A stretch of 64,000 bases of DNA, taken from contig OZ219753.1 in the NCBI GenBank assembly GCA_964291315.2, forward strand, positions 3,040,001 through 3,104,000, read 5' to 3'. Below the pieces are notes generated by a model. That model was not told where the DNA came from, did no database searches, and saw only the letters and a list, made by a program, of their open reading frames with translations. Both the position numbers and the translations under genes were made by a program. Shown piece after piece: positions 30,191 through 49,742 of this stretch. Origin of the DNA: Candidatus Poribacteria bacterium (GTDB taxonomy: Bacteria; Poribacteria; WGA-4E; WGA-3G). The stretch's first letter is position 1. The number at the start of each line of letters is the position of its first letter.

Positions 30191-32161
30191 CTAAAAGGAG
30201 CGGACAACCTTTGCCACCAGCCGTTGTTTGAACTCTATCGCGTTCGGATCGCCCAGTATGATGAAAAAGTCCGTGCCAGCGTAACCCGAGCGTCGTAGCG
30301 CCAAGTAGATGTTAACGCCTTCTACTTGCCAGATTAACCGACTACCAAGGCTCAGGGCGTTACTGAAGTCGTAGGTGAGGGTTAGAATCTGTTGATAGCG
30401 CCTCTCAAAGTGCCATTGGACTTGCGATGTGATCCCTGCAGTGAAGCCGTATGCACGTAGATTCAATCCCCCGCCGAGGCTATGAATCTCCTCCCCCGCC
30501 CGTTCGCCCCCCTGGTAGATGACATTGACAGTGTTGAAGCGGTCTGAGGCACGGGCACCCAAAATTATGCTAAACAAATGATCTCTGAATTCTTTAAATC
30601 GTCCCCCTTTCCATGCGATCAGGAACGAGTAGTCGCTGTGTGTCAAAAGTTGCGAGGAGAGATTGAAGAGACGCTGGAAAAGCTCCCCATCGTAAGTGTT
30701 CGCGTTCTCCAGCTGGGCAAAGAGTTGCAGCCTGCGCACAAACCCCTCTTGCCATTCGTTCTGTAGCGTCACACCTAAGTTTGCCCCGCGGTACCCTGTG
30801 AACGGATAGTAACCCAGCGGATTGACGAAATCCGGGTCCACCGCGAATGCAATCAAGTACGAGCGGACGAGAGAGCTGTTGTACCCAAACCTTACCAACC
30901 CGAACCTCTTATCTGATTCTCCCGCCCAACTTTGAGTCAGCTCACCGCCCACAAAAAAATTACCGCGGCGCGCAAAACCTGACAGGTACCCAGCATTTTG
31001 GGCACCTGTGTCGGATTTATGGGACGACAGGAATGCAGCGTCTAAACTGGTGGTCGCAGTGATCGACTGTGAAGCCCGGATCAGAAAGTTCTGGTTGTTT
31101 TTGTGATATGTGCCTAAAGAACCGACAGTTGTGTTTTTGCCAATCTTCCCAAACAGGTTCAGACCGCCATCCATATCTACTATCCGCCGTGAATGAAAAA
31201 AACCACCTAGATTGTAGATATTGCCACCCTCCGAAAAGAAGGGGCGCCGATCCGGCACGTAGCGTTCGCCGTAGGAGAAATCGATGCCCTCCACAGCTTG
31301 TTCAACATTATCAAAATCGGGATTCGCTGTCCCGATCAGGCGCAATTGTGGTGTAACTTCATAGCGGATATCCGCACCTCCGCGCGCAGTGTATTCCCTC
31401 TCGTCGGTATCCGTTTCGCTAATACCACCAATCAGATACGGCAATAACTTGATTTCCCGCCTACGAGGCGGCGGCAGCACATCCATCCAATGACCATCGT
31501 TCTCTTGAGAGTCATTCACGCCTAAGTTACACCACCACGAACGTTCCCCGGTGCGTTGTTGGAATCTGTCAATGTTGATCCCCATTTGAACAGATTGAGT
31601 CGTGTCAGGATAATCCAGCATCTGCCACGGGATTTCCATCTCTACAATCCATCCGTCTTCTACAATGCGCGCTGCAGCTTTCCACAGCCCGATCCATTCG
31701 CTTTTCTCCGCACGGCCCGTCGCGAGGTGTGCGTATTTTGTGCCAAGCGGATTTACAACAAAATAATTTCTGTCAAGTCCCTGGTGTGTATGGAATGGAT
31801 CAAGACTGAAAGAAACCGAATCTTCGTCTCTGATTCGCGCCTGGTCTTTGGTTTGGCGTGCTACAATTTTATCAGGCATATCATCGTAGAGATGAAGCCC
31901 TACGTAGATGGCTGTGTCCGTATAAACGAGGCGACCGATGGATTGATTTTTCGCTGGCTTTTCAGTGCGCTGATCGGTGAAACCTGTCGCTTGCGGCGCG
32001 TTTTGCCAGCAGGCATCGTCGAGAACACCGTCAATAGTTGGCGGATGTTCGATTTTAACTGCCGGCAACGCCTTTTTCACAGTGCTGTCCGTTGCAGCCC
32101 ACAGCTTTCCACACACAGTGAGGAAAAGAATGAAAGTGACGAATAGTTTTTTAGCTAGCAT
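30191..32161 (-). CDS. CBM9-like + DUF5916 domain protein
   Basis: Signal peptide, PTIDGVLDD..W, GW.VEM.IP, NPDF..VE, RPFF.EG, FHSRRI, beta-strand-rich C-terminus ending in F. Confidence 0.85.
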   Translation of the reverse strand: MLAKKLFVTFILFLTVCGKLWAATDSTVKKALPAVKIEHPPTIDGVLDDACWQNAPQATGFTDQRTEKPAKNQSIGRLVYTDTAIYVGLHLYDDMPDKIVARQTKDQARIRDEDSVSFSLDPFHTHQGLDRNYFVVNPLGTKYAHLATGRAEKSEWIGLWKAAARIVEDGWIVEMEIPWQMLDYPDTTQSVQMGINIDRFQQRTGERSWWCNLGVNDSQENDGHWMDVLPPPRRREIKLLPYLIGGISETDTDEREYTARGGADIRYEVTPQLRLIGTANPDFDNVEQAVEGIDFSYGERYVPDRRPFFSEGGNIYNLGGFFHSRRIVDMDGGLNLFGKIGKNTTVGSLGTYHKNNQNFLIRASQSITATTSLDAAFLSSHKSDTGAQNAGYLSGFARRGNFFVGGELTQSWAGESDKRFGLVRFGYNSSLVRSYLIAFAVDPDFVNPLGYYPFTGYRGANLGVTLQNEWQEGFVRRLQLFAQLENANTYDGELFQRLFNLSSQLLTHSDYSFLIAWKGGRFKEFRDHLFSIILGARASDRFNTVNVIYQGGERAGEEIHSLGGGLNLRAYGFTAGITSQVQWHFERRYQQILTLTYDFSNALSLGSRLIWQVEGVNIYLALRRSGYAGTDFFIILGDPNAIEFKQRLVAKVVRSF

Positions 32162-32624: not shown

Positions 32625-34169
32625 CTAACCTTTGGACGAAACCGAGGTAACCCCAACAATGCCTTTCTGCATCAATTCGATCAGTAACGTATCGGAGTGT
32701 TTAAGGGTGTTCCTTGGAACAGGGTGCCACAGACTTAATTGATTTATGACCTCTGCTTCTTCTGAGCAGATAGGGATACGTATTGTATACAGCAGGTCAT
32801 CCGAAACAAAAAATGCCCCGGTTTGTCTGCCGCTTAGCGCGAGAAACAGAAGGCTTTCCGGTTCGAGCCTCAACTCGATTTGAGAAGTATACGGCGCGAT
32901 CAACTGACGGTAGTCAGCATCTGCGAGTCCTTTGTAGACAGGACTGGCGGTGGTTCCTGTCTTTGCATACTGTAACCGGGGTCTCTTCTTTGTGAATCTT
33001 TGATGAAACCGGGTCCCAAAGGGAGATAACGTCGGCCTCGTTTCGTTTGTCGGGCTGTTAAGCACGCGTTCTACAAATTGTATGACCTGTTCCGTATAGC
33101 GCGCGTAACTAAATTTCGCCTTGACCCTCTCCCGCCCGCGTTGTCCTTGTTCTTCGCGGAGATGCCTGTTTTCAATCAAGGCTCTTATTGCACGTATGAC
33201 GGCTGGTGTGTCAATTCGAATGCCGTTTGTTGTCACCCATGTGTTTATGGAAAATCCGCCCTCAAGGTCTCGGATAGTGTCTTTTAATCCGCCCCATGCC
33301 GTGCCGATAACAGGCACTCCCGCACTCATCGCTTCGATCTGGGACAACCCGAAGTTTTCGTCGTGGTGGAGCGTGAGGTTTATGAAGGCATCAGACGCAT
33401 TGAAAACCTCGTTGAGTTCCTCGGAGCTTTGCCACCCGAGTATGATAACATCCTCTGAAATCTGTAATGACGCTATAAGGGCTTGGACTTTATCCTCTAA
33501 ATCCATCGGATGCATACGGAATTCAGAAAAAGGGACATCCTCAAAACGTCCCACGACGACCAACTTCACAGGGGTCCCCGAGTGTATGAGTTCAGCGACG
33601 GCCCTGAGTGTTGTGTGCAGATTCTTTTCAATGGTCACCCGCCCCGTGTAGACAAGGACAAAATCATCTGGCTTGACTCCCCAATCCTTTCGGAGTTTTT
33701 CGCGCGCTTCTCCGCTTTTTAAAGGGAAGTAAGTTTCAAGATTCACACCGAACGGAAGGTAGACCGCTTCCGGAGTGGGCTTATCTAGGTCAATAAACTC
33801 ATAATAGATGTCCCTATCGGCTGTGCTAGTAAACCATATCGCATCGCTCTGATATAGATAGGGCATAATATCTCGAAATTTGTTCGCGCCCCGGGGGAAT
33901 CCTCCGAGGGCTTGGAATATTGTTTTCCCTCTCCATCCATTTTCTTTTAGGAATTCAATATGCTTGCTATAGCTTGTGATGGCCAAATCCACATCTACCG
34001 CATTTTCGAGCGTCCATGATTCCATCTCTCTTACGCTGAAGGGCTCCCCTTCTGCTTTCAAGAGACGATACTCTTTTTCAAGAATCTGCTCTATCTGACT
34101 AAAAACAGTGTATAGACTGGAATCAGGCTCTTCCGTTGCGGCGTGTCGGGTCAATAGAATAGTTTTCAT
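32625..34169 (-). CDS. GT-B/GT4 glycosyltransferase with C-terminal extension, in lanthipeptide cluster
   Basis: PFGVN, YTGRVTIEKN, ENFGLSQIEAMSAGVPVI; co-oriented 108 nt downstream of the ABC exporters. Confidence 0.88.
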   Translation of the reverse strand: MKTILLTRHAATEEPDSSLYTVFSQIEQILEKEYRLLKAEGEPFSVREMESWTLENAVDVDLAITSYSKHIEFLKENGWRGKTIFQALGGFPRGANKFRDIMPYLYQSDAIWFTSTADRDIYYEFIDLDKPTPEAVYLPFGVNLETYFPLKSGEAREKLRKDWGVKPDDFVLVYTGRVTIEKNLHTTLRAVAELIHSGTPVKLVVVGRFEDVPFSEFRMHPMDLEDKVQALIASLQISEDVIILGWQSSEELNEVFNASDAFINLTLHHDENFGLSQIEAMSAGVPVIGTAWGGLKDTIRDLEGGFSINTWVTTNGIRIDTPAVIRAIRALIENRHLREEQGQRGRERVKAKFSYARYTEQVIQFVERVLNSPTNETRPTLSPFGTRFHQRFTKKRPRLQYAKTGTTASPVYKGLADADYRQLIAPYTSQIELRLEPESLLFLALSGRQTGAFFVSDDLLYTIRIPICSEEAEVINQLSLWHPVPRNTLKHSDTLLIELMQKGIVGVTSVSSKG

Positions 34170-34276
34170 GTTCTGTTTCCTCTACGTTATATCTATCTCA
34201 CTTTATGGGTCCTGAAATACATCCGTTAGTTAAAAGAGAGTCCCTCTTAAAACCTACTTAGCGACATCTATTATTC

Positions 34277-36067
34277 TTAGGCGTACCACGCAGATTGAGC
34301 CCGCCACATCTCAGCATATATACCCTCGTTCGCGAGCAACTCCGCGTGGGTCCCGCTTTCAACAAGGGCTCCCTCGTCTAAAACCAGAATTCTGTCACAC
34401 AACCGGGCAACTCCGAGTCTATGTGAGATGACGAGGAGGGTCCGGGATTCTGCTTTCGTTAACAACTCTCGAATTATGTCAGCCTCGGCAACGGGGTCTA
34501 TGGACGCAGTGGGTTCATCAAAAACCATGAGTGGACTGTCTCGAAATAGCCCGCGTGCGACCGCTATGCGAAGCCACTCGCCGCCTGATATGTCACGACC
34601 TCCGAACTCGTTTCCAAGGTAGAGATCTAAATCCTGCGAAAAAGTCGACCCCGCTTTCAACAAGGCGCTTCGTATACCCGCGTCGTCTTGAATGCGCTTA
34701 ACATCAGAAAACGCCACATTGTCGCGGACCGGCAGCAGATATCTAACAAAATCTTGGAAAACCGCACTCGCCTCCACCGTTTTCTGAGCTGTGCCTGCAT
34801 CTATCTTCACGCTGCCACGGCTCGGCGGATACAATCCGAGCAGGATATTTGCCAAAGTCGTCTTCCCAGATCCATTTTTACCCACAAGCGCAATGCGCTC
34901 TCCAGGGCTGATTTCTGCGGTAATGTGCTTTAGTACATCCGTCCCAGTTTGAGGATACCGGAAGGAGATACCCTCCATTTGAAGACGTAGCGGCTCCGCG
35001 CTGCCGTGTGCCGAAATATTGCTATCAGGGTTCGAGTTAGAAATCGCCGGCTGCTCAACGTTATCGGGCTGTATGGAAAAGAGTATGGCGAGTTCACGTA
35101 AAATACCCACCTGTTCCGCGAGGCTTCCAAGGGAACGCACCATCGTGGAAAGAAAGCCTTGCAAACTCACCGCTGCATGAATCAATCCGGTAAAAATGCC
35201 GGCTGTCTCTTTTGGGTCTGCGCTCTGTGCAGCGTGTGCTGCAATGAAAAGGACCGCCGCATATCCAAATACTGTGGAGAATCCGGCAAGCACCTCCCAG
35301 CGCATTATCTTTTTTAGCGTGGCAAGCTCTAGATTGGCAACGGTTTGATAAGATTTTTCCCACTTTGCCAACAACCAACGTTGGAGCGTGAACAACCGAA
35401 TTTCCCCCGCGCTGGTGCGAGAGGCGAGAAGCTCTGCCCAAGTCTCTTGTATCCGCTGCGAACGAACAACCGACCGTTCATGATCGCGTCTCAGCGAGAT
35501 GACACGCGGTTGTGTCAGGGAAATAACGACAGTGGATAACAACAGGGCCGCAGCACACCAGATGCCACCGCCAATGATGAATACCGCCGCGAACAACCCA
35601 ACAAGCGTAGCAACGCAGTGAATGTTATCTAGCACACTACGCAACAAACGCACAATACGATCCCCGAAATCCCGATGAGCCCGAGACGAAACGTCATGAA
35701 ACTCAGCGTCAAAAAAATGGAGCATCGGGATTCGCGCCGCCTGTTTTAAAAGCCGCTGCTGAAAATAGAGTATGGCTCGATTTGAGAACCATAACTGGGT
35801 CGGATAATTCAAAACATCGGTTAAAATTTGACACCCCGACATCACAAGATACATACAGCACCAGAAGAAGACTCGCTCGCCATTTATCAGGGCATTCGTA
35901 AACCCTGCGACAATAATAGCAGCAAACGCAAAAAACGCGGCATTCACAAGCCGCAAGAACACAGTGACAAAAAGCTGAAAAGGGGCAACAACGACAAAAC
36001 GGAGCACAATTCCTAAAACAGCCCGCCGCGAAACGTGTTGTACCTCTAAGCTGCTCACTGATACCAC
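34277..36067 (-). CDS. ABC exporter permease/ATPase (LanT-like)
   Basis: TM domain, GKNGSGKTT, ISGGEW, VFDEPT, SHRL; overlaps the upstream ABC gene. Confidence 0.92.
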   Translation of the reverse strand: MVSVSSLEVQHVSRRAVLGIVLRFVVVAPFQLFVTVFLRLVNAAFFAFAAIIVAGFTNALINGERVFFWCCMYLVMSGCQILTDVLNYPTQLWFSNRAILYFQQRLLKQAARIPMLHFFDAEFHDVSSRAHRDFGDRIVRLLRSVLDNIHCVATLVGLFAAVFIIGGGIWCAAALLLSTVVISLTQPRVISLRRDHERSVVRSQRIQETWAELLASRTSAGEIRLFTLQRWLLAKWEKSYQTVANLELATLKKIMRWEVLAGFSTVFGYAAVLFIAAHAAQSADPKETAGIFTGLIHAAVSLQGFLSTMVRSLGSLAEQVGILRELAILFSIQPDNVEQPAISNSNPDSNISAHGSAEPLRLQMEGISFRYPQTGTDVLKHITAEISPGERIALVGKNGSGKTTLANILLGLYPPSRGSVKIDAGTAQKTVEASAVFQDFVRYLLPVRDNVAFSDVKRIQDDAGIRSALLKAGSTFSQDLDLYLGNEFGGRDISGGEWLRIAVARGLFRDSPLMVFDEPTASIDPVAEADIIRELLTKAESRTLLVISHRLGVARLCDRILVLDEGALVESGTHAELLANEGIYAEMWRAQSAWYA

Positions 36068-37818
36068 TCCCTTTGTTCATTGAACATCTGAGCGTACTTC
36101 CCGTTTTTATCCAGCAGTTCCCTGGGTGTCCCAATTTCCACCAGGGTCCCCTTCTCTAAAACCGCAATCCGATCTGCAAGACGGGTAGGGCCAAGGCGAT
36201 GCGTTATAAGCAATGCTGTTTTCCCCTCTACCAACGCCACAAAATGCTCAAATAGTGCAAGCTCTGCCAACGGATCGAGATTCGCAGTGGGCTCGTCAAA
36301 AATAAAAAGGGAGACCTCTTTTTTCAAGAGACTCCTCGCCAATGCCACACGTTGCCATTCACCGCCGGATATATCCACGCCCCCTAACTCAGGCCCCAGA
36401 AGTGTTTCTAAACACAAGTTTTCTGTAGAAAATCCAACTTGCGCTAACGCAGCCTGAATGTCAGGATCTTGATTAGCGTCCAGACTGAAGGTAACGTTCT
36501 CTCGCAGCGTGCTCGGATACCTCACCGGGTGTTGAAAAACAAAGGTACACGCATTTCGAATGTCATCGGCGGCCATGCCGACAGCGTCTACACCGTCTAT
36601 CACCACGCGCCCATCTGTCGGAGAACGGAGCCCCGCCAACATGTGTGCCAACGTTGTCTTTCCAGACCCGTTTTCGCCTACGATTGCAAGAATTTCACCG
36701 GGGTGGAGATGCATATGAATGCCGCAAACCGCATCTGTGTCAGCACCGGGATAACGGTAGGTAACGCCGTCTAAAACGATACCTTGCCGCAGCGGACAAG
36801 GATAGGAGACAGAATCAGTTGATGAGGCTTCGGACGAGGGGAGAGCCATCAGACGACGAAAGTCCTCGCCATACCCGATATGTTGTACAAAACTCCTCAC
36901 CGTAAACTGCGCGGAATTCATACCGGCGGTGATAGTCCGAAACGCTTGTAGCACTAAGGCCGCAAGTCCCGGTTCAATTCGTCCACTGGAGAGAGAGACT
37001 ATGAACAGAGAAGCCCCAAGTATGAGTGTGAAAAGAAGGACTGCAAGGCCCCCTTGATACGTATTTTGAAGTGAAACCCGTAACTCCCCGCTCATATAAT
37101 CGCTCAGTGTCTTCTGCCAGCGTCCGAGGAGGGTCTCACCGATACCCCATAGGCGAATTTCGGAGGCACTTTGCCGACGCGTTAATAGTTGAACATAGTA
37201 ATCAGAAAGCCGTTTTTGATCCGTGTTTTCCACTTCAAAGCGGCGTTCACGCTGCCCCCAATAACTATTGAGGTACCTCAGGAGCACAACCCCACAAGCG
37301 AGTACTACCGGTAGCCATAAAGATATCAACCCTAAAATAACTGCGCTTGTTACCAAGATCGGCACATATTCGAGAATCTCCAACGCATCTTCCATTAAAC
37401 GGGGGCCGCGCACGTCTGCACCAGCAACCACGCGATAGATGAGATCATGCGTCTGTTTATCATCAAAAGCCTCCAGAGACAGGTTGCCTATCTTTGTCAA
37501 GGCACGACGTTGCAAAGAAAAACCGGCCTTCACTCGTATCCGTTCACGCAAGAGGGGAAGCACAATGAAGATGAGCTGTTGCCCAACAAACACAACGCAG
37601 AGCAGAATCAACCACACAAACGCAGCATCTAATCCACCGTCTACCAGCTGGTTGACTGTGGCGCGCAACAGAAGTAGAGCCCCGGCCGCCAAACCCGCTT
37701 GGATAAGCACAAGCAATACCCAAACAACAACAATATCCGGTGCTGATCTGACAATTCTTGAAAAGAGCCACAATAAGTTTCGGTATGAGGAACGTTCAGT
37801 TTCTACTGCGGAGTGCAT
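36055..37818 (-). CDS. ABC exporter permease/ATPase (LanT-like)
   Basis: TM domain, GENGSGKTT, ISGGEWQR, IFDEPT, THRL; overlaps the lanKC stop. Confidence 0.92.
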   Translation of the reverse strand: MHSAVETERSSYRNLLWLFSRIVRSAPDIVVVWVLLVLIQAGLAAGALLLLRATVNQLVDGGLDAAFVWLILLCVVFVGQQLIFIVLPLLRERIRVKAGFSLQRRALTKIGNLSLEAFDDKQTHDLIYRVVAGADVRGPRLMEDALEILEYVPILVTSAVILGLISLWLPVVLACGVVLLRYLNSYWGQRERRFEVENTDQKRLSDYYVQLLTRRQSASEIRLWGIGETLLGRWQKTLSDYMSGELRVSLQNTYQGGLAVLLFTLILGASLFIVSLSSGRIEPGLAALVLQAFRTITAGMNSAQFTVRSFVQHIGYGEDFRRLMALPSSEASSTDSVSYPCPLRQGIVLDGVTYRYPGADTDAVCGIHMHLHPGEILAIVGENGSGKTTLAHMLAGLRSPTDGRVVIDGVDAVGMAADDIRNACTFVFQHPVRYPSTLRENVTFSLDANQDPDIQAALAQVGFSTENLCLETLLGPELGGVDISGGEWQRVALARSLLKKEVSLFIFDEPTANLDPLAELALFEHFVALVEGKTALLITHRLGPTRLADRIAVLEKGTLVEIGTPRELLDKNGKYAQMFNEQREWYQ

Positions 37819-40511
37819 AGCAGGTCATCGAGCAAAAAATTGAAATTTTTGAATCTCTTTTCTCGGTTTGCTAGCCGAGCCAGAAACATCGCAATCCCCG
37901 CGGAGCCGCTCCCAAAATCGTTGGAAATCCGCAAAAGCTGTTCCCCCGGGAAAGCAATACCGTCCGGATTCTCTATTTGAAACTCAAGGATCCCTTTCGT
38001 AATTTTGAGTGCAGTTTCTATGCATTTGGTATCACCGGTAAAATCCCAAAGATCCAACTGTAGATTTCCAAGCCCGGCAAGTCCCGTAAATAAGGTGGGA
38101 AACGCAGTGAGATCACGAGCAGTGTCCGGCATCAAAGCATCCAACATCTCCTTATACTCGTCATTCTTGAAAACAGACCAGTAACGAACGAGCGCCGTAC
38201 AAACGCCTGCCGATCCGTCTGACCAGTAATGCGAAGCGACATTCTTGTGCATAGAAGGTGGTGACTCGGCGGCAACGCGTCGGATTTGAAATCCCTGTCT
38301 TGTTTCTTCCACTTGTGCTAAATCGTAAGATAACGCTCTTCGCCCGGCTTCTTCAAATCGGAGCTCTCCACTCGCCAATCTTAAGTAAAGGAAATAGAGT
38401 GCTATTCCTGATTGTCCCCTTGCATAGCCACACCAAATGTTTCCCTCCGTGTCTGGCCAGTAGTAACCCTCTTCTGATTCTGACTTTGTGTGGATTAACC
38501 GATCTCCCACTTGAACCGCCTGCTCCAACCAATATTCATCCTGTGTCTCTTTATGGAAATAGAGGCAAGCCAAACCGAAACCGGCAGCACCGTGGTAAAT
38601 GTCGGGAAGTTCCCAGAGCAACGGGTGCTCCGCTGCAGCTTTCATCAATTGCAACGCTATCTTTTGCTGTCCTAGCTTCCAAAACACCCATGCTATTCCG
38701 GACAGCCCCAGGTAGAGCCCCGGCGGATATTTGTCATTTGAAATCTCTTGTGATAGCATCCACGTTATTACTTTCTCTGAAACTTTACCCTCCAGAGACA
38801 ACAGGGCATAAGCAACACCTGCTGCGCCATGGGCGACGCTTAATGGATTCGTCCTGAAAACAGACGGATCCGCAGGAAAGAGGCAATCCGTTCTGTTAAA
38901 ACTCATATGAGACGTGATATAGTTCACTGTCTTATCGACAGTATCCATCAAACACATATCGCTTACCCTCGCCTTATCTGTATCCAATTGGGTGTGTGTA
39001 TCAAGCGACATGTTATTTAGTCGGTTTAAGATTTCATCTACTGACGGGCGCACATTTTCTTCCGCATCCATGCACTCAAGTATAAGTTCCTTCATACGAC
39101 GCGGAAGGGATCCAGCGTTTTCCGCACTCGCTAGGAAGCCATGTGTTGCTGTAGGCTTTATATTTAGTAAAGAGGTCACGGGGCAAATTAAACTGAACAT
39201 GATCCGGCCCAACCCGTATATGTCGTCCGAGGGGGACTGCACCCCTTCTGAGGGTCTAAACCCCGGTGTTCCAAACGTCGTGTATGGTGCATCAACGCCG
39301 ACCTCCCAAGCCCCCTCCAAGTCAATAAGTTGCAACGTTTCATCGTTTTGATGGAGGATGATATTTCCAGGCGAAGTATCATTAATAACGATGTTATGCT
39401 CATGTACAATTTTTAAGGCATGGGTAAGATTTGCGAAGATCTTATAGAGTCCCTCTACATAAATGTTCCCGTCTTTTTCGTCACTTCCAAGTGTCTCATT
39501 TCTACCTTGAGAAACGAGATCAAAGAGGTTGCTACCTTCAAGAAACTCCTCAACGAGGAATAGATGCTCCCAATCCTGAAAAAGATCCAAGGGCTCTGGT
39601 GTAACACCCGTTCCACTTAACTTGCTTAACAGACGATGCTCTTTTCTTAACCTCTCCACCGCGTCCAACCCGTCGGGGCCAATGTTCGTGTGGGGGCGTG
39701 CCTCTTTGATAACCACATGCTGCCCCGTATCCATGTCCACAGCTTTATAAACACCGCCCGTGAGAGAATAGTGCAGCGATCCTTCAATAAGGTATTTACC
39801 ATCCTTCAAAGAAAGCGCGTCCAGATCAGAAGAGTCATCTACTTCATTATTTTCATCTGAATCAAAAGGATCGGACATCCAAGGTGGGAGATCGAAAAAT
39901 GGAGACCTGCCATCCGTCACGAGCGCTCCATTAGGATCTTGAAGAAAATTTTCAACCTGCCCAAATATTGATATTTTGGGGACACCAATAAAGGCACCGT
40001 AACGATAATGCACTACTTCAGAGGTTTTATACCGCTTGTCTGATAAAATGTAAGGTCCCTTCATATCAGCGAGCTGCTCACATAAATCATCTGCAACCCT
40101 GTGGAAATGTTGAACATCTGACGGATAAATCGTTAAAAACTTTCCGCCAGATTCTCTGGCCCCTCCTTTATCCATTATTATGCTGAACACGAAAGGGTCT
40201 GCCAGAAATTTGAAAGCGACTTCCTGCCGAACGCAAATGTCGGTACATCTCTCAAGTATCTGCTTACAATTATCGGGGATCGCGGAAATGTGAATCTTCC
40301 AACCTTGTCTCAACGATTCATGGCTTCGAGGGAAAGTGTGCGTCCAAATGCCGTCTTGGCGGAGGTTCCATGAGATCGGCAACCTCTCGCGGACGATCTG
40401 CAGAAAATCCGGAGAAGGAACATATCGAGAAAAGGGCTCATACCAGTCTGAAGGTATAAGGCTATGAAAAGGGTATAGATTACGTCCGAAGTTTGGATCT
40501 GTTATGAGCAT
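37803..40511 (-). CDS. lanKC: Class III lanthipeptide synthetase (lyase-kinase-cyclase)
   Basis: Lyase QGWKIHIS, GKFLTIYP, GPYILSD, YRYGAF; kinase GGVYKA, IKEARP, DTSPGN, IDLE; LanC-like cyclase lacking Zn ligands (WSDGSAG and LFTGLAG in place of CHG). Confidence 0.93.
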   Translation of the reverse strand: MLITDPNFGRNLYPFHSLIPSDWYEPFSRYVPSPDFLQIVRERLPISWNLRQDGIWTHTFPRSHESLRQGWKIHISAIPDNCKQILERCTDICVRQEVAFKFLADPFVFSIIMDKGGARESGGKFLTIYPSDVQHFHRVADDLCEQLADMKGPYILSDKRYKTSEVVHYRYGAFIGVPKISIFGQVENFLQDPNGALVTDGRSPFFDLPPWMSDPFDSDENNEVDDSSDLDALSLKDGKYLIEGSLHYSLTGGVYKAVDMDTGQHVVIKEARPHTNIGPDGLDAVERLRKEHRLLSKLSGTGVTPEPLDLFQDWEHLFLVEEFLEGSNLFDLVSQGRNETLGSDEKDGNIYVEGLYKIFANLTHALKIVHEHNIVINDTSPGNIILHQNDETLQLIDLEGAWEVGVDAPYTTFGTPGFRPSEGVQSPSDDIYGLGRIMFSLICPVTSLLNIKPTATHGFLASAENAGSLPRRMKELILECMDAEENVRPSVDEILNRLNNMSLDTHTQLDTDKARVSDMCLMDTVDKTVNYITSHMSFNRTDCLFPADPSVFRTNPLSVAHGAAGVAYALLSLEGKVSEKVITWMLSQEISNDKYPPGLYLGLSGIAWVFWKLGQQKIALQLMKAAAEHPLLWELPDIYHGAAGFGLACLYFHKETQDEYWLEQAVQVGDRLIHTKSESEEGYYWPDTEGNIWCGYARGQSGIALYFLYLRLASGELRFEEAGRRALSYDLAQVEETRQGFQIRRVAAESPPSMHKNVASHYWSDGSAGVCTALVRYWSVFKNDEYKEMLDALMPDTARDLTAFPTLFTGLAGLGNLQLDLWDFTGDTKCIETALKITKGILEFQIENPDGIAFPGEQLLRISNDFGSGSAGIAMFLARLANREKRFKNFNFLLDDLLCTPQ

Positions 40512-40576
40512 AAAATTATCCCAAATGAGTGAGGCCAGCCCTGCAGTCTGTGCCTGTCATTACTTAAAACTGTCAT

Positions 40577-40615
40577 CTGTGAACCAGACGCTGTCATCAC
40601 AGATCCAGCCCACAG
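40577..40615 (-). promoter_or_regulatory. RNA hairpin 3' of precursor A1
   Basis: CTGTGGGCTGGA-T-CTGT-GATG-ACAG-CG-TCTGGTTCACAG pairs fully with G-U wobbles. Confidence 0.65.
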
Positions 40616-40630
40616 ACAAAAGAAAATAGG

Positions 40631-40744
40631 CTAAGTGCAATTGTTTGTGCAACTAGAAGCCACGCAAGAACTTGCAGACACAGTCATTGAAGACGTACTC
40701 AAGTTCAAGACGGGCATCTGTTGTAATGCTAAAACGCGCTTCAT
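40631..40744 (-). CDS. lanA: Lanthipeptide precursor A1, MKRVLALQQMPVLNLSTSSMTVSASSCVASSCTNNCT (37 aa)
   Basis: AAGGAG RBS; VLALQ class III leader motif; Ser/Thr/Cys-rich C-terminus; directly upstream of lanKC. Confidence 0.9.
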   Translation of the reverse strand: MKRVLALQQMPVLNLSTSSMTVSASSCVASSCTNNCT

Positions 40745-40770
40745 AAGAAAACTCCTTGTTTCTATGTTAG

Positions 40771-40809
40771 CTGTGAACCAGACGCTGTCATCACAGATCC
40801 GGCTCACAG
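40771..40809 (-). promoter_or_regulatory. RNA hairpin 3' of precursor A2
   Basis: Copy of 40577-40615 with two substitutions that keep base pairing. Confidence 0.65.
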
Positions 40810-40824
40810 ACAAAAGAAAACGGG

Positions 40825-40938
40825 TTAATTGCAATTGTTTGTGCAACTGTAAGAATGGCAAGAAGAATAAGACTGAATCGTTGGAGACGCACCCAAGCGC
40901 AGGGCGGGCATCCGTTGTAGCGCTAAAACGCGCTTCAT
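40825..40938 (-). CDS. lanA: Lanthipeptide precursor A2, MKRVLALQRMPALRLGASPTIQSYSSCHSYSCTNNCN (37 aa; not in ORF track)
   Basis: Hand translation; same length, leader and Cys spacing as A1; 194-bp tandem unit; no obvious RBS. Confidence 0.85.
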   Translation of the reverse strand: MKRVLALQRMPALRLGASPTIQSYSSCHSYSCTNNCN

Positions 40939-41437
40939 AAGAAAAATATAGTGAGCAATTTACCTAAGAAGGCAAAAAGAGAAAGTACCTTGCCTCCTGT
41001 GGCAATCCTCTGGTTATTAGATGGTTAACACTGCTATGCTACCGTCATGGCAACACAGCGTGCATAGGTGCAGAAATCACCTTTGGCGCACATCACAGAA
41101 AAGCTCGATCTCGGTACACATCCGAAACATCCAAGGGAAAACCGTCCCCTTTTTTCGGTGATGTATCGTTTCCAAGACCGCATCAAGCACCTGACTGTCG
41201 CTTTTCTCATGGAGTTCTTTCCATTCGGGACGTTCCGCCCGGTCGGAAAAGGTCGGGCAGGTGACACTGAAACGTTCACCAATCTCATCATACCGAACCT
41301 ATTGAAACATAAACTGACATTGTAAAAAACGACCATATTAACACTGTGCATTGAAATATTTTCCGTGTAAAGCCAAATTATACCGGAAAGGCATCTTTTC
41401 GTAAAGAAAAAAGGTGATTTCCATTCAATACATTATA

Positions 41438-41466
41438 ATTATACACTCTTTCGAGCCTTATGTCAA
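41438..41466 (-). promoter_or_regulatory. Consensus sigma70 promoter facing the lanthipeptide operon
   Basis: TTGACA-17-TATAAT, about 500 nt upstream of A2. Confidence 0.65.
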
Positions 41467-41532
41467 GAAAAAATTAGATCGTTCGGTAGAGCTACTCGAT
41501 TGTCGCGTATAGTCTTTTGACAAAAATAAAGA

Positions 41533-41643
41533 CCCTGCCCCCAACTCCGCCTGGGTAAACACAAGCAATACCCAAACAACAATATCCGGGGCCGATCTGA
41601 AAACTCTTGAAAAGAGCCATCAGATTTTACTGCGGCGTGCATA
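41533..41643 (-). pseudogene. Degenerate copy of the lanKC-stop/ABC-start junction (37681-37819)
   Basis: Shared CACAAGCAATACCCAAACAACAA, GATCTGA...CTTGAAAAGAGCCA and TACTGCGG.GTGCATA, with internal deletions. Confidence 0.7.
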
Positions 41644-41797
41644 AAACGTTTCTGTATGTTTGAGAGAAGCGTGTTTGTGGCAACGGTGTGCACGTTTTAA
41701 AGGCGATAGTGCTGTAAAACCGTCGTCTATGCGCCACAGTGCCTTTGCCCGATTTTATCTCTCAAACGGATGTGCAGCAGTGTGTCCGTGAGGCGAC

Positions 41798-42220
41798 TTA
41801 TGGTGCAGACGGCTCCAACCGTTTTGCGATGCTAAGGAATAAGGTAGGGGCTAGCTGTCCGACTACCTCGATTCCTTTTTCATTTCGGGCATGTGCGATG
41901 TCCAAGGACACAGTGCTTTCCTGCAAGCTCAGCGAAACGCGATGTGTGCCGATGTGTCGCGTGGTTCCTGCAGCCTGTTCGGTTAGCCACGGTGTCGCGG
42001 CCGCTATTGCTTCAACGAAGGGACCGATTTTGATTTGAAGTAAGGTAGTCGGCTGTGCATCTATCAAGCCGAGTTGTGCCTGCCAATCCTCTGTATCTGT
42101 GTGCGTTTCGTTTAACACCTGGTCCACCATTTTTTGGAATTGCTGCTGAGAAAACGTTAGCAGAAAGAAATCGTTGATGTTTCCATAATAGAGGTGGCCG
42201 GGAATCGAGTCTGTATTCAT
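41798..42220 (-). CDS. Hypothetical protein
   Basis: 140-aa ORF from MNTDSIP with globular composition; start uncertain. Confidence 0.45.
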   Translation of the reverse strand: MNTDSIPGHLYYGNINDFFLLTFSQQQFQKMVDQVLNETHTDTEDWQAQLGLIDAQPTTLLQIKIGPFVEAIAAATPWLTEQAAGTTRHIGTHRVSLSLQESTVSLDIAHARNEKGIEVVGQLAPTLFLSIAKRLEPSAP

Positions 42221-42557
42221 AGTTATGCCTTTATAATCTGCTTGTTGTCTGTGTTCGGGCATAGCGGTTTTTTTTTCAAGAGCAAGTGAGCTATCTCGTG
42301 CAGAATCGCAGGTTGTTCGGGCAGCCCACAAACAGCGCGAAGCGGGGCATGCTTTGAGATAAAAGTGTATAAACATTTAAATAATTTTCCACATTACTAT
42401 AGTATATTTCTAAAACATAAACTTTTTCGCATACCTTATAGATACTTAAAACCGGCTAAAGGGTAGTGAAAAATCTAAGGTTTCACAATCGCCTCAGTGT
42501 TTCTATGGAAATCAATATTTCAAGCCGCCTGCTCATCTCGCTCCTCATTTCTTTTTA

Positions 42558-42642
42558 TAAAAGGGAAACCCTCTTAAAACCTACTTAGAGACACCTATTT
42601 TTAGGCGTACGACACGAATTAAGCACACCACATCTCAGCATA
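42558..42642 (-). pseudogene. Degenerate copy of ABC exporter 3' end and downstream spacer (34231-34318)
   Basis: Shared CCCTCTTAAAACCTACTTAG, TTAGGCGTAC and CCACATCTCAGCATA. Confidence 0.7.
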
Positions 42643-42663
42643 CGTGCCCAGAGCCTGTCAGTT

Positions 42664-42687
42664 GTAGCATAGACTGTCAGTCTGTGC
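42664..42687 (+). repeat. GTAG-type REP-like palindrome, copy 3
   Basis: GTAGCATAGACTGTCAGTCTGTGC followed by a partial second copy, GTTGTAGCATA. Confidence 0.6.
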
Positions 42688-43272
42688 AGTGTTGTAGCAT
42701 ATGCTGTTGGTTTCCTGTGCCACTTCGGTACTTCTCACCCAACCTGTTAGGCTACCTAAGAACCCTCTTTATCCAAAGATGAGCCAAATAATTATCAAAC
42801 TCGCGTTAAGACCCCTCATGAAACAGCGTCAATACCGCTCTCTTCCGAAAAATAGTGGACTTGATGACTGCACGTCCCACAAGCAGTGAACGAGTATAGA
42901 GCGAACACATTTCCTTGTGATCGCTCAAGCAGGATATCCCGTTCGCCAACCATAGAAACAGGCTTGTGCCACAGTTTTCTCCAAGCCTGTGTTGTTGCCT
43001 TAAAGGGGATCTGTTTTGGAATAAATTGCTTACTGTATATTAAGTGTAAGGGGGGGGTTAGGAAGCGATAAAAAGCAAGACGAACGAACAGCAGCGCAGA
43101 TAGGATCCACACCGCACAAGGCAAATATTGCCACAGAACCTGACGTTCCGAGTAAGGGCTTAACCGCTAAAGCTTTCAGGCATTTCATGAGTAGATACAT
43201 CAATACCGATAGGCTTAACAGAACCTATCAATGTTACCTTAGGAATTACTTTCTTTCATACTTTCTATTTTA

Positions 43273-43302
43273 ATTATACATTACACTATCAAGTTATGTC
43301 AA
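43273..43302 (-). promoter_or_regulatory. Sigma70-like promoter with no long ORF downstream
   Basis: TTGACA-18-TATAAT. Confidence 0.5.
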
Positions 43303-43603
43303 GAACTTTTTTCACCTATCCAGAGCCATTCAATCCTCGTTCATATTTTTTTCATGATATTGAGAGCTCTGCATGGGTTCGCTGCGAAGCTAGGTGCGTA
43401 GGGTAGAGTGTGGGGTGCGTCTCCTCCGCAGGGATCTCTTTTAACACCGTTCCTTGAAACCGACGGCGATCCCACTCCGCATAAAGCCAAAACGCGGCAA
43501 ACATCAGGAGGGTCAAAAGGATCGGGACAACTATCCCTTTTAGGTTCGTTATTTTTACTTTACGTTTCTCCTTTTTACGTTAATCAGAATGAATTGAAGA
43601 CAC

Positions 43604-44500
43604 TCATTTATCTCCCGGTTTCATGTTAAAGACAACTTTTTCGGTCTCAAGTATCCCTTGCTGCTCGAAAATTTTTGCAGTGAATTTCATTTGTTTCAGG
43701 ACACTTTCAAAATTGGCAATTTCTTTGGCATGCTTTTCAGGGTTAATGTCTTTCAACATCTGCGTTTGTAATTCACAATATTGAATCATCTCTAGAATCG
43801 TGACCTCCTTCTGAAGTGAAAAGCGGAAGAAGAGGGCTTTCCATTCTTCCGTGCGCGGGTGTCCGTGAAATGCAAGTGTAGCAAACGCATCAAGTTCCGT
43901 GCGTGCGGCATCTACATCATGCGGGAGGCGTTCATGAAAGTTCACGTAATGTTGGTGGGCGGTTGTTTCCGATGCCGCTGGGGAGGTCCCCCTTTCTGAT
44001 GTGCCTGCTTTTCCGTCAGAATCTGTGGATTTCGGTGCTCGAAGTGGATCGTCCCCCGCTGATGTGAGGGTTTCAGCGTGTTTGAGGGCTTCTCGGTGGT
44101 ATTGTATCGGCACTGCATGTTTATCGGCATCAATCGCTGTCAGCATCCGGATTTCGAGTTCATGGATCCGTTGGATGTCCGAGGGATGCTCTGTCCCGTC
44201 TCGCAGGACTCGGAAGTAGAGCGGGATCCATTCCTCAACGAGGGTATGTCCGTCAAACAGAGTGGGGGCAACCCTCTGGAGCTCTGTGCGTGCGGCATCC
44301 GCATCCGTTTTGAGGAGTTGATGAAATGTTCTCAGTTCTGCTGTCCAAGGGGAGGGATTGACTTCCAGGGTAGCCCCTTTCTGTGCATATACAGACAGGA
44401 GCCCGATACAGCAAAACAGGAGTGTGTATAAGAGTGACGTTTTCAGCCGTCTTCCGTTTTCAAAGACGGCTAACGTCTGCGCGTGAATAAAGGTCAACAT
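43604..44500 (-). CDS. Secreted hypothetical protein with two internal helical repeats (family C)
   Basis: Signal-like segment; repeat FH..L..D.DAARTEL...A...F.GH...EEW..L.FR...ML..I...KHA occurs twice; paralog of 60817-61674. Confidence 0.8.
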   Translation of the reverse strand: MLTFIHAQTLAVFENGRRLKTSLLYTLLFCCIGLLSVYAQKGATLEVNPSPWTAELRTFHQLLKTDADAARTELQRVAPTLFDGHTLVEEWIPLYFRVLRDGTEHPSDIQRIHELEIRMLTAIDADKHAVPIQYHREALKHAETLTSAGDDPLRAPKSTDSDGKAGTSERGTSPAASETTAHQHYVNFHERLPHDVDAARTELDAFATLAFHGHPRTEEWKALFFRFSLQKEVTILEMIQYCELQTQMLKDINPEKHAKEIANFESVLKQMKFTAKIFEQQGILETEKVVFNMKPGDK

Positions 44501-44827
44501 CTATAACCTCCAAAAATTTTTAACAGTCTAAGTTTTATTCTATATTTATCGCCGGAGAGCTTTCGGACGGCAAAAAGGCTCGGCGTTTTGTCGTCTCTGC
44601 AATCCTCTATCTATTTATCGTACATCCATTTGACGCGGCAATAAGACCGCGGCCAGTGTCCGTTTCCAGCAATTAAAATTAAAAAATATCCCCGTCCTAG
44701 CGATGCAGGACCTCCCGGAGCGGAAACGCTTACATCTGAACATATTCTTTTCTATTCCGTTTGTTGCATGTGATGTGTCTCTGTTTTTCTCTGTATTCAT
44801 GGCATTTTGGTGCCTGGGATTTCTCCG

Positions 44828-45952: not shown

Positions 45953-45995
45953 TTCAAACTCCTTGTTGAAATGCGGGGGCACCTTGGAGACCACG

Positions 45996-46658: not shown

Positions 46659-46713
46659 CCCCTTTTAATTTTGTGTACCTGTTCTATCTGTGGGTGCCGC
46701 GCGGCAAAATGTT

Positions 46714-49720: not shown

Positions 49721-49742
49721 GAGAACCCCTCCTTGTTGTAAG

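What the first reader, a model, noticed from the sequence alone, without database searches (positions are those of the whole stretch)
32625..40938. Class III lanthipeptide cluster with two precursors and a dedicated glycosyltransferase: candidate new glyco-lanthipeptide
Seen: a co-oriented run lanA2-lanA1-lanKC-ABC-ABC-GT4, with overlapping stops and starts from lanKC through both ABC genes. The cyclase domain lacks the Zn-binding CHG motifs, and both precursors carry a VLALQ leader. Known: LanKC enzymes recognise LxLQ-type leaders and install lanthionine or labionin, clusters often lack a protease, and glycosylated lanthipeptides are rare (NAI-112 on Trp, cacaoidin on Tyr). Inference: neither core contains Trp and only A2 has Tyr, so a shared acceptor would have to be Ser, Thr, Asn or Cys. 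That would differ from those precedents, and the host is probably an uncultured Poribacteria-like lineage.
Basis: partly seen in the sequence, partly recalled or inferred. Interest (0 to 1): 0.88.

Follow-up and report, generated by a model that had tools for sequence, protein, structure and literature searches.

The report
Lanthipeptide cluster with dedicated glycosyltransferase
An uncultured Poribacteria genome carries an intact class III lanthipeptide gene cluster whose neighbouring sugar-transferase gene travels with the lanthipeptide enzyme in related genomes and has an extra peptide-docking-like domain, so the product is probably a new kind of sugar-decorated ribosomal peptide.

Summary
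On the minus strand lie two 37-aa precursors, a class III LanKC, two overlapping ABC half-transporters and, after a 107-bp gap, a 514-aa GT4 glycosyltransferase.

In 176 Poribacteria genomes, the 4 closest GT matches (E<=1e-138) all lie within 3 kb of a LanKC gene, on the same strand and with different genes in between. These GTs form one clade with 100/100 support.

Two points are new:
- The last ~85 residues of the GT fold into a three-strand, helical winged-helix domain. Its best structural matches are the RiPP recognition elements of TbtB, MibB, PqqD, NisB, MccB, TbiB1 and LynD, at Z 5-8. Sequence methods do not detect this similarity.
- The other 6 Poribacteria genomes with this GT family carry it in lasso (3) or radical-SAM/SPASM (3) peptide clusters.

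Glycosylation, the acceptor residue and precursor binding are inferred, not shown. I rate this a new variant of a known kind: NAI-112 is the only glycosylated class III precedent.

The parts
41438..41466 (-). Sigma-70-type promoter-like site (TTGACA, 17 nt spacer, TATAAT), about 500 nt upstream of lanA2
   Evidence: 12 of 12 consensus matches. This is a consensus match only; no transcript data were available.
40825..40938 (-). lanA2 precursor, 37 aa, with an MKRVLALQ leader motif and a Ser/Cys-rich core ending CTNNCN
   Evidence: Translation; alignment A4 (invariant M1, R3, L5, A6, L7, Q8).
40765..40812 (-). RNA hairpin with a ~20-bp stem after lanA2 and no U-tract; a candidate stabiliser or attenuator
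   Evidence: MFE -31.9 kcal/mol for the 81-nt stretch, z -5.6, 0 of 200 shuffles as stable. Coordinates were read from the dot-bracket string.
40631..40744 (-). lanA1 precursor, 37 aa, with the same leader and a core ending CTNNCT
   Evidence: Translation (the ATG start lies inside the listed TTG ORF; sequence); alignment.
40573..40619 (-). Second copy of the hairpin, after lanA1. The two base differences from the first copy keep pairing.
   Evidence: MFE -30.1 kcal/mol, z -2.8, 1 of 200 shuffles as stable.
37803..40511 (-). Class III lanthipeptide synthetase LanKC (lyase, kinase and Zn-less cyclase domains), 902 aa
   Evidence: It is the only LanKC match over the cut-off in the genome.
36055..37818 (-). 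ABC exporter half-transporter 1 (TMD-NBD), overlapping the LanKC stop by 16 nt
   Evidence: Pfam ABC_tran and ABC_membrane; MsbA-like and bacteriocin-exporter-like NCBIfam hits, all below their cut-offs.
34277..36067 (-). ABC exporter half-transporter 2, overlapping ABC1 by 13 nt
33057..34169 (-). GT catalytic part (residues 1-371): a GT-B fold of the retaining GT4 type, with E271-x7-E279 and a G176-R177...K182 motif
   Evidence: Pfam Glycos_transf_1. These residues are invariant or at least 90% conserved in 62 relatives. AF2 model pLDDT 92.4; Foldseek best matches are sucrose-phosphate synthase, PimB', MshA and BshA at E 1e-18 to 1e-16.
32883..33056 (-). GT linker region (residues 372-429) with conserved F-G-x-R-F-H-Q-R-F and P-Y-T-S motifs; residues 397-405 are of low confidence
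32640..32882 (-). GT C-terminal RRE-like winged-helix domain (residues ~430-510): three strands, then helices
   Evidence: AF2 models. VIA-align: 11 of the top 28 chains are RRE regions of RiPP enzymes, Z 4.9-8.0. A weak wHTH profile hit, E 8e-4.

Best explanation
This is an intact class III lanthipeptide gene cluster in a Candidatus Poribacteria genome, and its glycosyltransferase is a dedicated tailoring enzyme.

Proposed course of events:
1. The two precursor genes are transcribed. Each is followed by a strong hairpin that probably sets the ratio of precursor to enzyme (inferred).
2. LanKC recognises the N-terminal (V/I)LALQ leader motif. It phosphorylates and eliminates Ser/Thr, and its Zn-less cyclase domain directs Cys addition onto the conserved S-x-x-S-(x)n-C motif. 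This gives lanthionine or labionin rings (inferred from family membership).
3. The GT4 enzyme transfers a sugar from a nucleotide sugar onto the peptide. Its C-terminal RRE-like winged-helix domain probably holds the precursor while this happens (inferred from the fold, from gene linkage and from the family's occurrence in other RiPP clusters).
4. The ABC heterodimer exports the product. The leader is removed by non-cluster peptidases, since no protease gene lies between lanA2 and the GT (inferred).

The acceptor is unknown. The two window cores share Ser, Thr, Cys and Asn.
For: Identity of the genes (shown):
- LanKC has the three-domain architecture and scores 748 bits on NF038151, above the 575 cut-off.
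- It has no CHG or C-x-G motif.
- Across 21 precursors, the leader residues M1, R3, L5, A6, L7 and Q8 are invariant, and an S-x-x-S motif followed by Cys is conserved.

Linkage of the GT to LanKC:
- In 41 related genomes, full-length GT orthologues (E<=1e-190) occur only in G000, G006 and G012. The next best hit has E 1.9e-11.
- In 176 genomes of the phylum, 10 have the GT family at E<=1e-40.
- The 4 with E<=1e-138 (G000, G006, G012, G157) are exactly those that also hold LanKC on the same strand within 3 kb.
- The gene orders differ: LanKC-ABC-ABC-GT (window), LanKC-GT (G006), LanKC-methyltransferase-MFS-GT (G157) and LanKC remnant-GT (G012).
- The pairing persists at 43% LanKC identity and 35% GT identity.
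- Metagenome contigs L053-L055 repeat the LanKC-GT order.
- In a tree of 30 GTs, the 5 LanKC-linked ones form one clade (100/100) and the 3 radical-SAM-linked ones form another (99/97).

The family is associated with peptide natural products:
- The other 6 Poribacteria genomes with the GT have it in lasso clusters (G150, G163, G140) or radical-SAM/SPASM clusters (G046, G063, G045).
- Other metagenome relatives lie beside a radical SAM enzyme or a LanC-like protein, or beside NRPS genes.

Catalytic competence:
- The E-x7-E and G-R...K motifs are conserved.
- The full-length model has pLDDT 92.4 and pTM 0.91, and resembles retaining GT4 enzymes.

RRE-like domain:
- The top VIA-align hits are TbtB (Z 8.0, 86 residues aligned) and MibB (Z 7.2).
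- Further RRE hits are TigE, PqqD, MadB, MccB, NisB, McbB, TbiB1, LynD and TglI.
Against: - No chemistry was tested. Neither dehydration nor glycosylation is shown.
- The GT is separated from the ABC genes by 107 bp and could have its own promoter-like site.
- The C-terminal domain has no Pfam match.
- hhalign finds no similarity to a genuine PqqD-type B1 from a Poribacteria lasso cluster (probability 0.6%).
- Foldseek gave no match at E<=0.001.
- Z scores of 5-8 are in the range the tool calls common, and generic winged-helix proteins are mixed among the RRE hits.
- The same family occurs beside NRPS genes, where there is no leader peptide. The domain therefore need not bind a leader.
- Class III synthetases are not known to need an RRE (recalled).
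- In G012 the LanKC is only a C-terminal remnant next to a transposase-like fragment at the contig end, so the module can decay.
- The linked genomes all belong to one genus and are not independent.
Confidence: 0.7

Rival explanations
1. The GT belongs to the cluster but does not modify the peptide. It acts instead on a lipid, a cell-envelope polymer or another small acceptor, for example as self-protection for the producer or in making a co-metabolite.
For: - The closest solved structures are GT4 enzymes that act on small soluble or lipid acceptors: MshA, BshA, PimB', sucrose-phosphate synthase and WaaG.
- JGI names for relatives read 'glycosyltransferase involved in cell wall biosynthesis'.
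- The next gene downstream in the window and in G012 is a CBM9/DUF5916 carbohydrate-binding-type protein.
- The G157 locus has a UDP-glucose/GDP-mannose dehydrogenase two genes further on.
Against: - An envelope role does not explain why GT clades follow the RiPP class of the neighbouring enzyme.
- It does not explain why the family carries a domain whose best structural matches are peptide-binding RREs.
- It does not explain why all 10 Poribacteria genomes with the family have it inside a peptide cluster.
Confidence: 0.16
2. The GT is an unrelated neighbour: an ordinary envelope polysaccharide gene that happens to lie next to the lanthipeptide operon.
For: - A 107-bp gap separates it from the ABC genes, which overlap one another.
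- GT4 genes are abundant. Every related genome has several weak GT4 matches.
Against: - Orthologues were found only in genomes that also carry LanKC, always adjacent and in three different gene orders.
- None was found in the LanKC-less genomes searched in the genus.
- The C-terminal domain profile finds only 220 protein clusters in 1.84 billion proteins, so this is not a generic GT4.
Confidence: 0.04
3. The cluster is cryptic or decaying and makes no product in this organism.
For: - In G012 only a C-terminal remnant of LanKC, with an internal stop, remains beside a transposase-like fragment.
- The cluster is patchily distributed: 4 of 176 genomes.
Against: - All six window ORFs are intact, with conserved catalytic motifs.
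- A 12/12 promoter-like site lies upstream.
- In the sister clusters the C-terminal Asn-Asn of 18 precursor copies is kept through synonymous AAC/AAT changes, while the neighbouring codons vary. This indicates ongoing selection on the peptides.
Confidence: 0.08

Closest known systems
NAI-112 pathway (AplA / AplKC / AplG) of Actinoplanes
   Same: It is a class III lanthipeptide with a cluster-encoded glycosyltransferase. In the passages read from PMC8341899 and PMC11912497, glycosylation follows ring formation and the cluster relies on a general Zn peptidase.
   Different: - NAI-112 carries a deoxyhexose N-linked to Trp; the window cores have no Trp.
- The host phylum differs: Poribacteria versus Actinobacteria.
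- The GT here has an extra RRE-like C-terminal domain.
- I had no AplG sequence, so homology to AplG was not tested.
Cacaoidin (class V lanthipeptide) cluster, with GT2 enzymes Cao8 and Cao16 and GT4 enzyme Cao24
   Same: It is a lanthipeptide cluster that contains a GT4-family enzyme proposed to add a sugar (passages of PMC8068269).
   Different: - It is class V, not class III.
- The sugar is a disaccharide O-linked to Tyr, and three GTs are present.
- No RRE-like extension is described in the passages I read.
- Only one of the two window cores has Tyr.
Glycocin S-/O-glycosyltransferases (SunS type, GT2)
   Same: They are peptide-directed glycosyltransferases of RiPP pathways that modify Cys, Ser or Thr. 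These residues are shared by all LanKC-linked precursors seen here.
   Different: - They are GT2 (GT-A fold, inverting) rather than GT4 (GT-B fold) (PMC11912497 introduction).
- Glycocins are not lanthipeptides.
RRE-enzyme fusions catalogued by RRE-Finder and its 2025 structure-based update
   Same: Both papers report RREs fused to glycosyltransferases and carbamoyltransferases as bioinformatic predictions (passages of PMC7470986 and PMC12710340). The idea of a GT with a built-in RRE is therefore in print.
   Different: - The Pfam family named there is PF00535 (GT2); the enzyme here is PF00534 (GT4).
- No link to class III lanthipeptides appears in the passages found ('class III' occurs 0 times in PMC12710340).
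- The supplementary figures that list the fusions could not be opened.
IgtG, the lasso-peptide glycosyltransferase of davasins
   Same: It is a cluster-encoded GT that decorates a RiPP. It is relevant because relatives of the window's GT sit in Poribacteria lasso clusters.
   Different: - IgtG is a membrane-bound deacetylase/GT2 protein that acts on the mature lasso peptide (PMC11912497).
- That paper states IgtG was the sole GT found co-occurring with lasso genes in its own network.

Membership tests
Class III lanthipeptide synthetase (LanKC) | Three domains in the order lyase (RamC_N), Ser/Thr kinase, LanC-like cyclase | tested here: met
   Pfam RamC_N at residues 39-223 (E 1.1e-58), Pkinase at 252-496 and LANC_like at 556-887.
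Class III lanthipeptide synthetase (LanKC) | Scores over the curated cut-off of the class III equivalog model and not of the class IV model | tested here: met
   NF038151 scores 748.4 bits against a cut-off of 575. NF038150 (LanL) scores 568.1 bits against a cut-off of 650.
Class III lanthipeptide synthetase (LanKC) | Cyclase domain lacks the Zn-ligand Cys/His motifs of LanC, LanM and LanL | tested here: met
   No CHG or C-x-G anywhere in the 902 residues. This was a motif check; a residue-by-residue alignment to a Zn-binding LanC was not made.
Class III lanthipeptide synthetase (LanKC) | Dehydrates and cyclises its precursor | not testable with these tools
   Needs expression and mass spectrometry.
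Class III lanthipeptide precursor | Leader with a hydrophobic-L-x-L-Q motif, and a core with S-x-x-S-(x)n-C | tested here: met
   VLALQ lies at residues 4-8 in both precursors. In the alignment of 21 precursors, S23 is at least 90% conserved, S26 is conserved in most rows, and a Cys follows. That this is the family's defining motif is recalled knowledge.
GT4 retaining glycosyltransferase (GT-B) | Glycos_transf_1 domain over the Pfam cut-off, and a GT-B fold | tested here: met
   PF00534 scores 100 bits against a cut-off of 26.4. Foldseek E 1.3e-18 to 1e-16 to sucrose-phosphate synthase, PimB', MshA and BshA.
GT4 retaining glycosyltransferase (GT-B) | E-x7-E motif and a phosphate-binding G-R/K motif | tested here: met
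   E271 and E279, and G176, R177 and K182, are invariant or at least 90% conserved in 62 relatives. That these motifs mark GT4 is recalled.
RiPP recognition element (PqqD-like RRE) | Fold of three N-terminal strands followed by a helical winged-helix bundle | tested here: met
   The model has strands 440-443, 447-450 and 453-456, then helices 469-476 and 493-502. 11 of the top 28 VIA-align chains are RRE regions, Z 4.9-8.0, with 64-86 residues aligned. Z under 8 is called common by the tool.
RiPP recognition element (PqqD-like RRE) | Sequence membership (Pfam PqqD PF05402 or profile similarity to a known RRE) | tested here: not met
   There was no Pfam hit for any of 29 C-terminal domains at E<=1 apart from scattered HTH families. 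hhalign against the PqqD-type B1 of G150 gave probability 0.6%. I therefore call it RRE-like and do not file it in the PqqD family.
RiPP recognition element (PqqD-like RRE) | Binds the precursor's leader as an added strand | not testable with these tools
   Needs binding assays or a co-structure.
NAI-112-type glycosylated class III lanthipeptide | Trp acceptor for N-glycosylation | tested here: not met
   Neither window precursor contains Trp.
NAI-112-type glycosylated class III lanthipeptide | GT homologous to AplG | not tested

The most novel reading that the evidence does not exclude
This GT4 family, with its built-in RRE-like domain, could be a portable peptide-glycosylation module that is independent of RiPP class. 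Poribacteria would then have plugged it into lanthipeptide, lasso and radical-SAM pathways. Its acceptor or recognition mark could be an Asn near the C-terminus.

Asn lies within the last five residues in 20 of 21 LanKC-linked precursors and 5 of 5 lasso precursors seen here. In the 18 copies of the two nine-gene arrays, Asn-Asn is kept through synonymous codon changes.

If so, the products would be the first Asn-linked glycosylated RiPPs, made by a GT-B enzyme.
Probability: 0.15. Interest if true: 0.85.

Novelty: new variant of a known kind. Interest (0 to 1): 0.68.

Why it matters
Glycosylated RiPPs are rare. The 2025 introduction of PMC11912497 counts two glycosylated lanthipeptides and two lasso families, and few of the enzymes have been characterised.

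This finding offers three things:
- a compact six-gene cluster from an uncultured phylum that could be expressed heterologously;
- a small, distinct GT4 family that follows three RiPP classes within one phylum (about 220 clusters at 50% identity in 1.84 billion proteins);
- a possible docking domain that could make the enzyme a tool for leader-guided peptide glycosylation.

It also gives a concrete handle on what Poribacteria make. Their products are otherwise known only from genome predictions.

Tried and rejected
1. Complex prediction of the C-terminal domain (A3 residues 58-143) with the precursor alignment A4 returned no verdict: score 0.00, controls not run. I take nothing from it.

2. 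Expression. The look-up of sequencing runs listed no RNA holder.

3. Sequence-level tests for an RRE all came back empty or weak.
- Pfam on 29 C-terminal domains found nothing relevant.
- The PDB profile search gave only weak MarR/ArsR hits, best E 7.7e-4.
- hhalign against a true B1 gave probability 0.6%.
- Foldseek against PDB gave no hit at E<=0.001.

4. I considered that the G163 lasso cluster might lack a B1 and use the GT's own domain instead. This is rejected: a PqqD-family ORF lies directly upstream of the GT there, and also in G140 and G150.

5. An empty-site test of whether the whole module is one insertion was inconclusive.
- The left-flank DUF5916 gene is multi-copy in the genus.
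- The right-flank gene has a close orthologue only in G004, far from any DUF5916 copy.

6. The upstream region 40940-44600 and the GT-DUF5916 spacer show no tblastx or blastn similarity to the sister loci. The window ORF 41798-42376 is not the sigma factor found upstream of the G006 precursors.

7. The genome contigs pattern scan found only the two Poribacteria orthologues, plus two unrelated GT4 genes.

9. Literature. Searches listed no paper describing this GT family or a Poribacteria class III cluster with a GT. For the 9 papers holding both 'Poribacteria' and 'lanthipeptide' I saw only the listing. Prior mention cannot be excluded.

Full report
**What is there**

The region 32625-40938 holds six co-oriented minus-strand genes. 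Two 37-codon genes encode MKRVLALQRMPALRLGASPTIQSYSSCHSYSCTNNCN (lanA2) and MKRVLALQQMPVLNLSTSSMTVSASSCVASSCTNNCT (lanA1).

Each precursor gene is followed by a near-identical stretch that folds into a hairpin with a stem of about 20 bp. The energies are -31.9 and -30.1 kcal/mol, with z scores of -5.6 and -2.8. The two base differences between the copies preserve pairing.

Next comes a 902-aa protein with RamC_N, protein kinase and LanC-like domains.
- It passes the curated cut-off of the class III LanKC model (748 bits against 575).
- It fails the class IV cut-off (568 bits against 650).
- It has no CHG or C-x-G motif.
- It is the only such gene in the 4.4-Mb genome.

Two ABC half-transporters follow, with 16-nt and 13-nt overlaps. 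After a 107-nt gap comes a 514-aa GT4 glycosyltransferase. A 12/12 sigma-70-type promoter match lies at 41466-41438.

Same-genus orthologous loci are titled 'MAG: Candidatus Poribacteria bacterium'.

**Is the glycosyltransferase part of the cluster?**

In 41 related genomes, full-length orthologues (56-61% identity, E<=1e-190) exist only in G000, G006 and G012. The next best hit has E 1.9e-11.

Across all 176 Poribacteria genomes held, 10 have a family member at E<=1e-40, and 7 have a LanKC-like match at E<=1e-25. The four genomes with the closest GTs (E<=1e-138) are exactly those in which a LanKC gene lies within 3 kb on the same strand.

The gene orders differ among them:
- Window: LanKC-ABC-ABC-GT.
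- G006: nine precursors, then LanKC, then GT after a gap of about 45 bp between the ORFs, with no ABC genes.
- G157: one precursor (MRRILALQRIDEDFSTEVKMFSCTSCLACSC), then LanKC, methyltransferase, MFS transporter and GT.
- G012: a C-terminal LanKC remnant at a contig end beside a transposase-like fragment, then GT.

G157's LanKC is 43% identical to the window's and its GT is 35% identical. The pairing has therefore survived long divergence and rearrangement.

Three metagenome contigs (L053-L055) carry the same set of nine precursors and are probably one organism. They repeat the G006 order. L056 has ABC fragments followed by a GT.

The three other LanKC-like matches (G011, G099, G153) are ORFs of 430-446 aa that cover only the lyase and part of the kinase. 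Those genomes have no GT of this family.

**The GT family elsewhere**

The six remaining Poribacteria genomes with the family have no LanKC. In every one the GT sits in another ribosomal-peptide cluster.

| Genome | Locus | Cluster type | Genes seen with the GT |
|---|---|---|---|
| G150 | L047 | lasso | four YxxPxL-type precursors, PqqD-type B1, transglutaminase-like B2, Asn-synthase-like cyclase, two ABC genes |
| G163 | L048 | lasso | lasso genes, with a PqqD-type B1 directly upstream of the GT |
| G140 | L052 | lasso | lasso cyclase and a PqqD-type B1 |
| G046 | L049 | radical-SAM/SPASM | radical-SAM/SPASM enzyme, a Cys/Asn-rich candidate precursor |
| G063 | L050 | radical-SAM/SPASM | radical-SAM/SPASM enzyme, a Cys-rich candidate precursor |
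| G045 | L051 | radical-SAM/SPASM | radical-SAM/SPASM enzyme, Trp/Asn-rich candidate precursors |

These assignments rest.

I built a maximum-likelihood tree from 30 of the 89 GT genes in hand. I chose complete ORFs on longer contigs and left out the other 59. The five LanKC-linked GTs form one clade (100/100). The three radical-SAM-linked ones form another (99/97). The two lasso-linked ones group with one metagenome row (89/90). In that call I labelled all other metagenome rows 'soil'. That is my shorthand; I did not establish their habitat.

Of the 80 metagenome loci kept (119 relatives among 365 pattern matches), 76 are relatives of 27-40% identity.
- Clustering their neighbours gave recurrent families.
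- Pfam on one representative of each named an NRPS condensation domain, an adenylation-PCP protein, TauD, penicillin amidase, MacB/FtsX permease, ankyrin, carbamoyltransferase and M28 peptidase.
- Two further loci show GT next to radical SAM plus ABC (L057), and GT next to a stand-alone LanC-like protein (L096).

The family is thus tied to peptide natural products generally, and within Poribacteria to RiPPs.

**The enzyme itself**

Residues 1-371 are a GT-B catalytic unit.
- Glycos_transf_1 matches with E 1.4e-28.
- E271-x7-E279 and G176-R177...K182 are conserved in 62 relatives.
- The full-length AlphaFold2 model is confident (pLDDT 92.4, pTM 0.91).
- It resembles retaining GT4 enzymes such as sucrose-phosphate synthase, PimB', MshA and BshA (E 1e-18 to 1e-16, 15-20% identity).

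Residues 372-514 have no Pfam match but are conserved throughout the family. Modelled alone (pLDDT 80.9, and at least 89 for residues 61-140) or within the whole protein, the last ~85 residues form three short strands followed by helices.

An all-against-representatives structural search put RRE regions of RiPP enzymes at 11 of the top 28 places. In each case the alignment falls on the region known (recalled) as the leader-binding RRE.

| Chain | Z |
|---|---|
| TbtB | 8.0 |
| MibB | 7.2 |
| TigE | 6.1 |
| PqqD | 5.8 |
| MadB | 5.7 |
| MccB N-terminus | 5.6 |
| NisB 130-246 | 5.6 |
| McbB | 5.4 |
| TbiB1 | 5.2 |
| LynD 6-89 | 5.0 |
| TglI | 4.9 |

Several results count against calling it an RRE:
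- Z values under 8 are common for this tool.
- Generic winged-helix proteins and the C-terminus of the carbamoyltransferase NovN are interleaved among the hits.
- Foldseek had no hit at E<=0.001.
- The PDB profile search gave only weak MarR/ArsR matches.
- hhalign finds no similarity to a real PqqD-type B1.

I therefore call it an RRE-like fold, not a member of the PqqD family.

A profile of this domain finds only 220 clusters at E<=0.001 among 1.84 billion representatives. In the 150 best listed, the full-length hits carry it at residues ~370-550 of proteins of 510-600 aa, and the shorter hits look like fragments. The domain is therefore specific to this GT architecture.

**The precursors**

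In the alignment of 21 LanKC-linked precursors, M1, R3, L5, A6, L7 and Q8 are invariant. An S-x-x-S motif followed by Cys is conserved. That pattern is the class III ring-forming motif (recalled).

G006 and L053 each carry arrays of nine precursors with variable cores. All 18 end in Asn-Asn. The window's two end in CTNNCT and CTNNCN. G157's precursor has no Asn in its core.

In the two arrays, the Asn-Asn codons have a mean pairwise nucleotide identity of 0.84-0.91 and vary synonymously between AAC and AAT. The preceding codons (0.34-0.48) and the first 20 nt after the stop (0.44-0.49) are much less conserved. The conservation therefore acts on the amino acids, not on a nucleotide element.

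The five lasso precursors beside related GTs also have Asn within their last four residues.

These copies are paralogues from a few clusters and are not independent. The pattern is a lead for the acceptor or a recognition mark, not a result.

**Most likely mechanism**

*Shown:* the identity and integrity of the genes, the linkage of the GT to LanKC, and the fold of the GT.

*Inferred from family knowledge:*
- LanKC binds the LALQ leader, phosphorylates and eliminates Ser/Thr, and forms thioether or labionin rings.
- The ABC pair exports the product.
- Leader removal is by non-cluster peptidases. Passages of PMC8341899 describe this as common for class III.

*Inferred from linkage and fold:*
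- The GT adds a sugar to the peptide, with its C-terminal domain helping to hold the substrate.
- Whether it acts before or after cyclisation is open. In NAI-112 glycosylation follows ring formation (PMC8341899).

**Comparison with what is known**

I read the outline (with abstract) and sections 4 and 9 of PMC11912497, and also looked up passages in it. For PMC8341899, PMC12328550, PMC8068269, PMC7470986 and PMC12710340 I read passages only.

According to these, the known glycosylated lanthipeptides are NAI-112 (class III, Trp-N, AplG) and cacaoidin (class V, Tyr-O, two GT2 enzymes and one GT4). RRE-glycosyltransferase fusions have been listed bioinformatically, with PF00535 (GT2) named.

The present case differs in several ways: the GT family (GT4 with its own RRE-like domain), the possible acceptors (no Trp), the phylum, and the spread of the GT family across three RiPP classes. 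I found no paper describing it. Most hits were seen only as listings, and supplements were closed.

**Verdict**

This is a new variant of a known kind. It is of real interest to RiPP chemists, but it does not overturn anything. My confidence that the GT tailors the peptide is about 0.7.

Noticed in passing
L047 (G150) 6923-12745; L048 (G163) 2562-11541; L052 (G140) 1-3760: Three Poribacteria lasso-peptide clusters carry a relative of the same GT, each time next to the discrete PqqD-type B1 gene. G150 has four precursors with YxxPxL-type leaders. A 2025 paper (PMC11912497) states that IgtG was the only GT it found with lasso genes in its own network.
   Followed up: partly
L049 (G046) 2033-9538; L050 (G063) 8996-13213; L051 (G045) 9081-15862: Radical-SAM/SPASM peptide clusters contain the GT family. 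Candidate precursors are Cys/Asn-rich (L049 3530-3796; L050 11578-11760, minus strand) or Trp/Asn-rich with repeated SNW units (L051 9081-9284 and 9630-9815).
   Followed up: partly
L027/L030 (G006) precursor array; L053-L055 2090-4248 and equivalents: Arrays of nine class III precursor genes share an invariant MTRILALQ leader, have variable cores and all end in Asn-Asn. The Asn codons vary synonymously. One enzyme with many substrates resembles the prochlorosin arrangement (recalled).
   Followed up: partly
L017/L029 (G011), L044 (G099), L045 (G153): ORFs of 430-446 aa match only positions 24/36-385/390 of the LanKC model (the lyase plus part of the kinase, with no cyclase). They occur in three genomes that lack the GT. 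Their similar sizes suggest a separate family rather than random truncation.
   Followed up: no
L091 1593-18807 and similar loci (L064, L089, L105, L107, L114, L116, L118): Relatives of the GT at about 30% identity have a longer C-terminal extension (~185 aa) and sit in NRPS-type clusters. Neighbours include condensation and adenylation-PCP proteins, TauD, penicillin amidase, MacB-type permease, ankyrin protein and carbamoyltransferase.
   Followed up: partly
L028 (G012) 9313-10175: The LanKC gene is reduced to its last ~250 codons with an internal stop. It abuts a transposase-like fragment at the contig end, while the adjacent GT is intact. BlaI/BlaR1-like genes lie between the GT and the DUF5916 gene.
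   Followed up: no
window 44828-50552: A run of minus-strand ORFs of 220-455 aa has no Pfam match. The 388-aa ORF at 44828-45994 resembles repeated segments of proteins of about 1100-1290 aa in sister genomes.
   Followed up: no
window 30191-32161: The CBM9/DUF5916 gene downstream of the GT belongs to a multi-copy family, with up to four copies per genome in the genus, often clustered. A copy also lies downstream of the GT in G012 and G063.
   Followed up: partly
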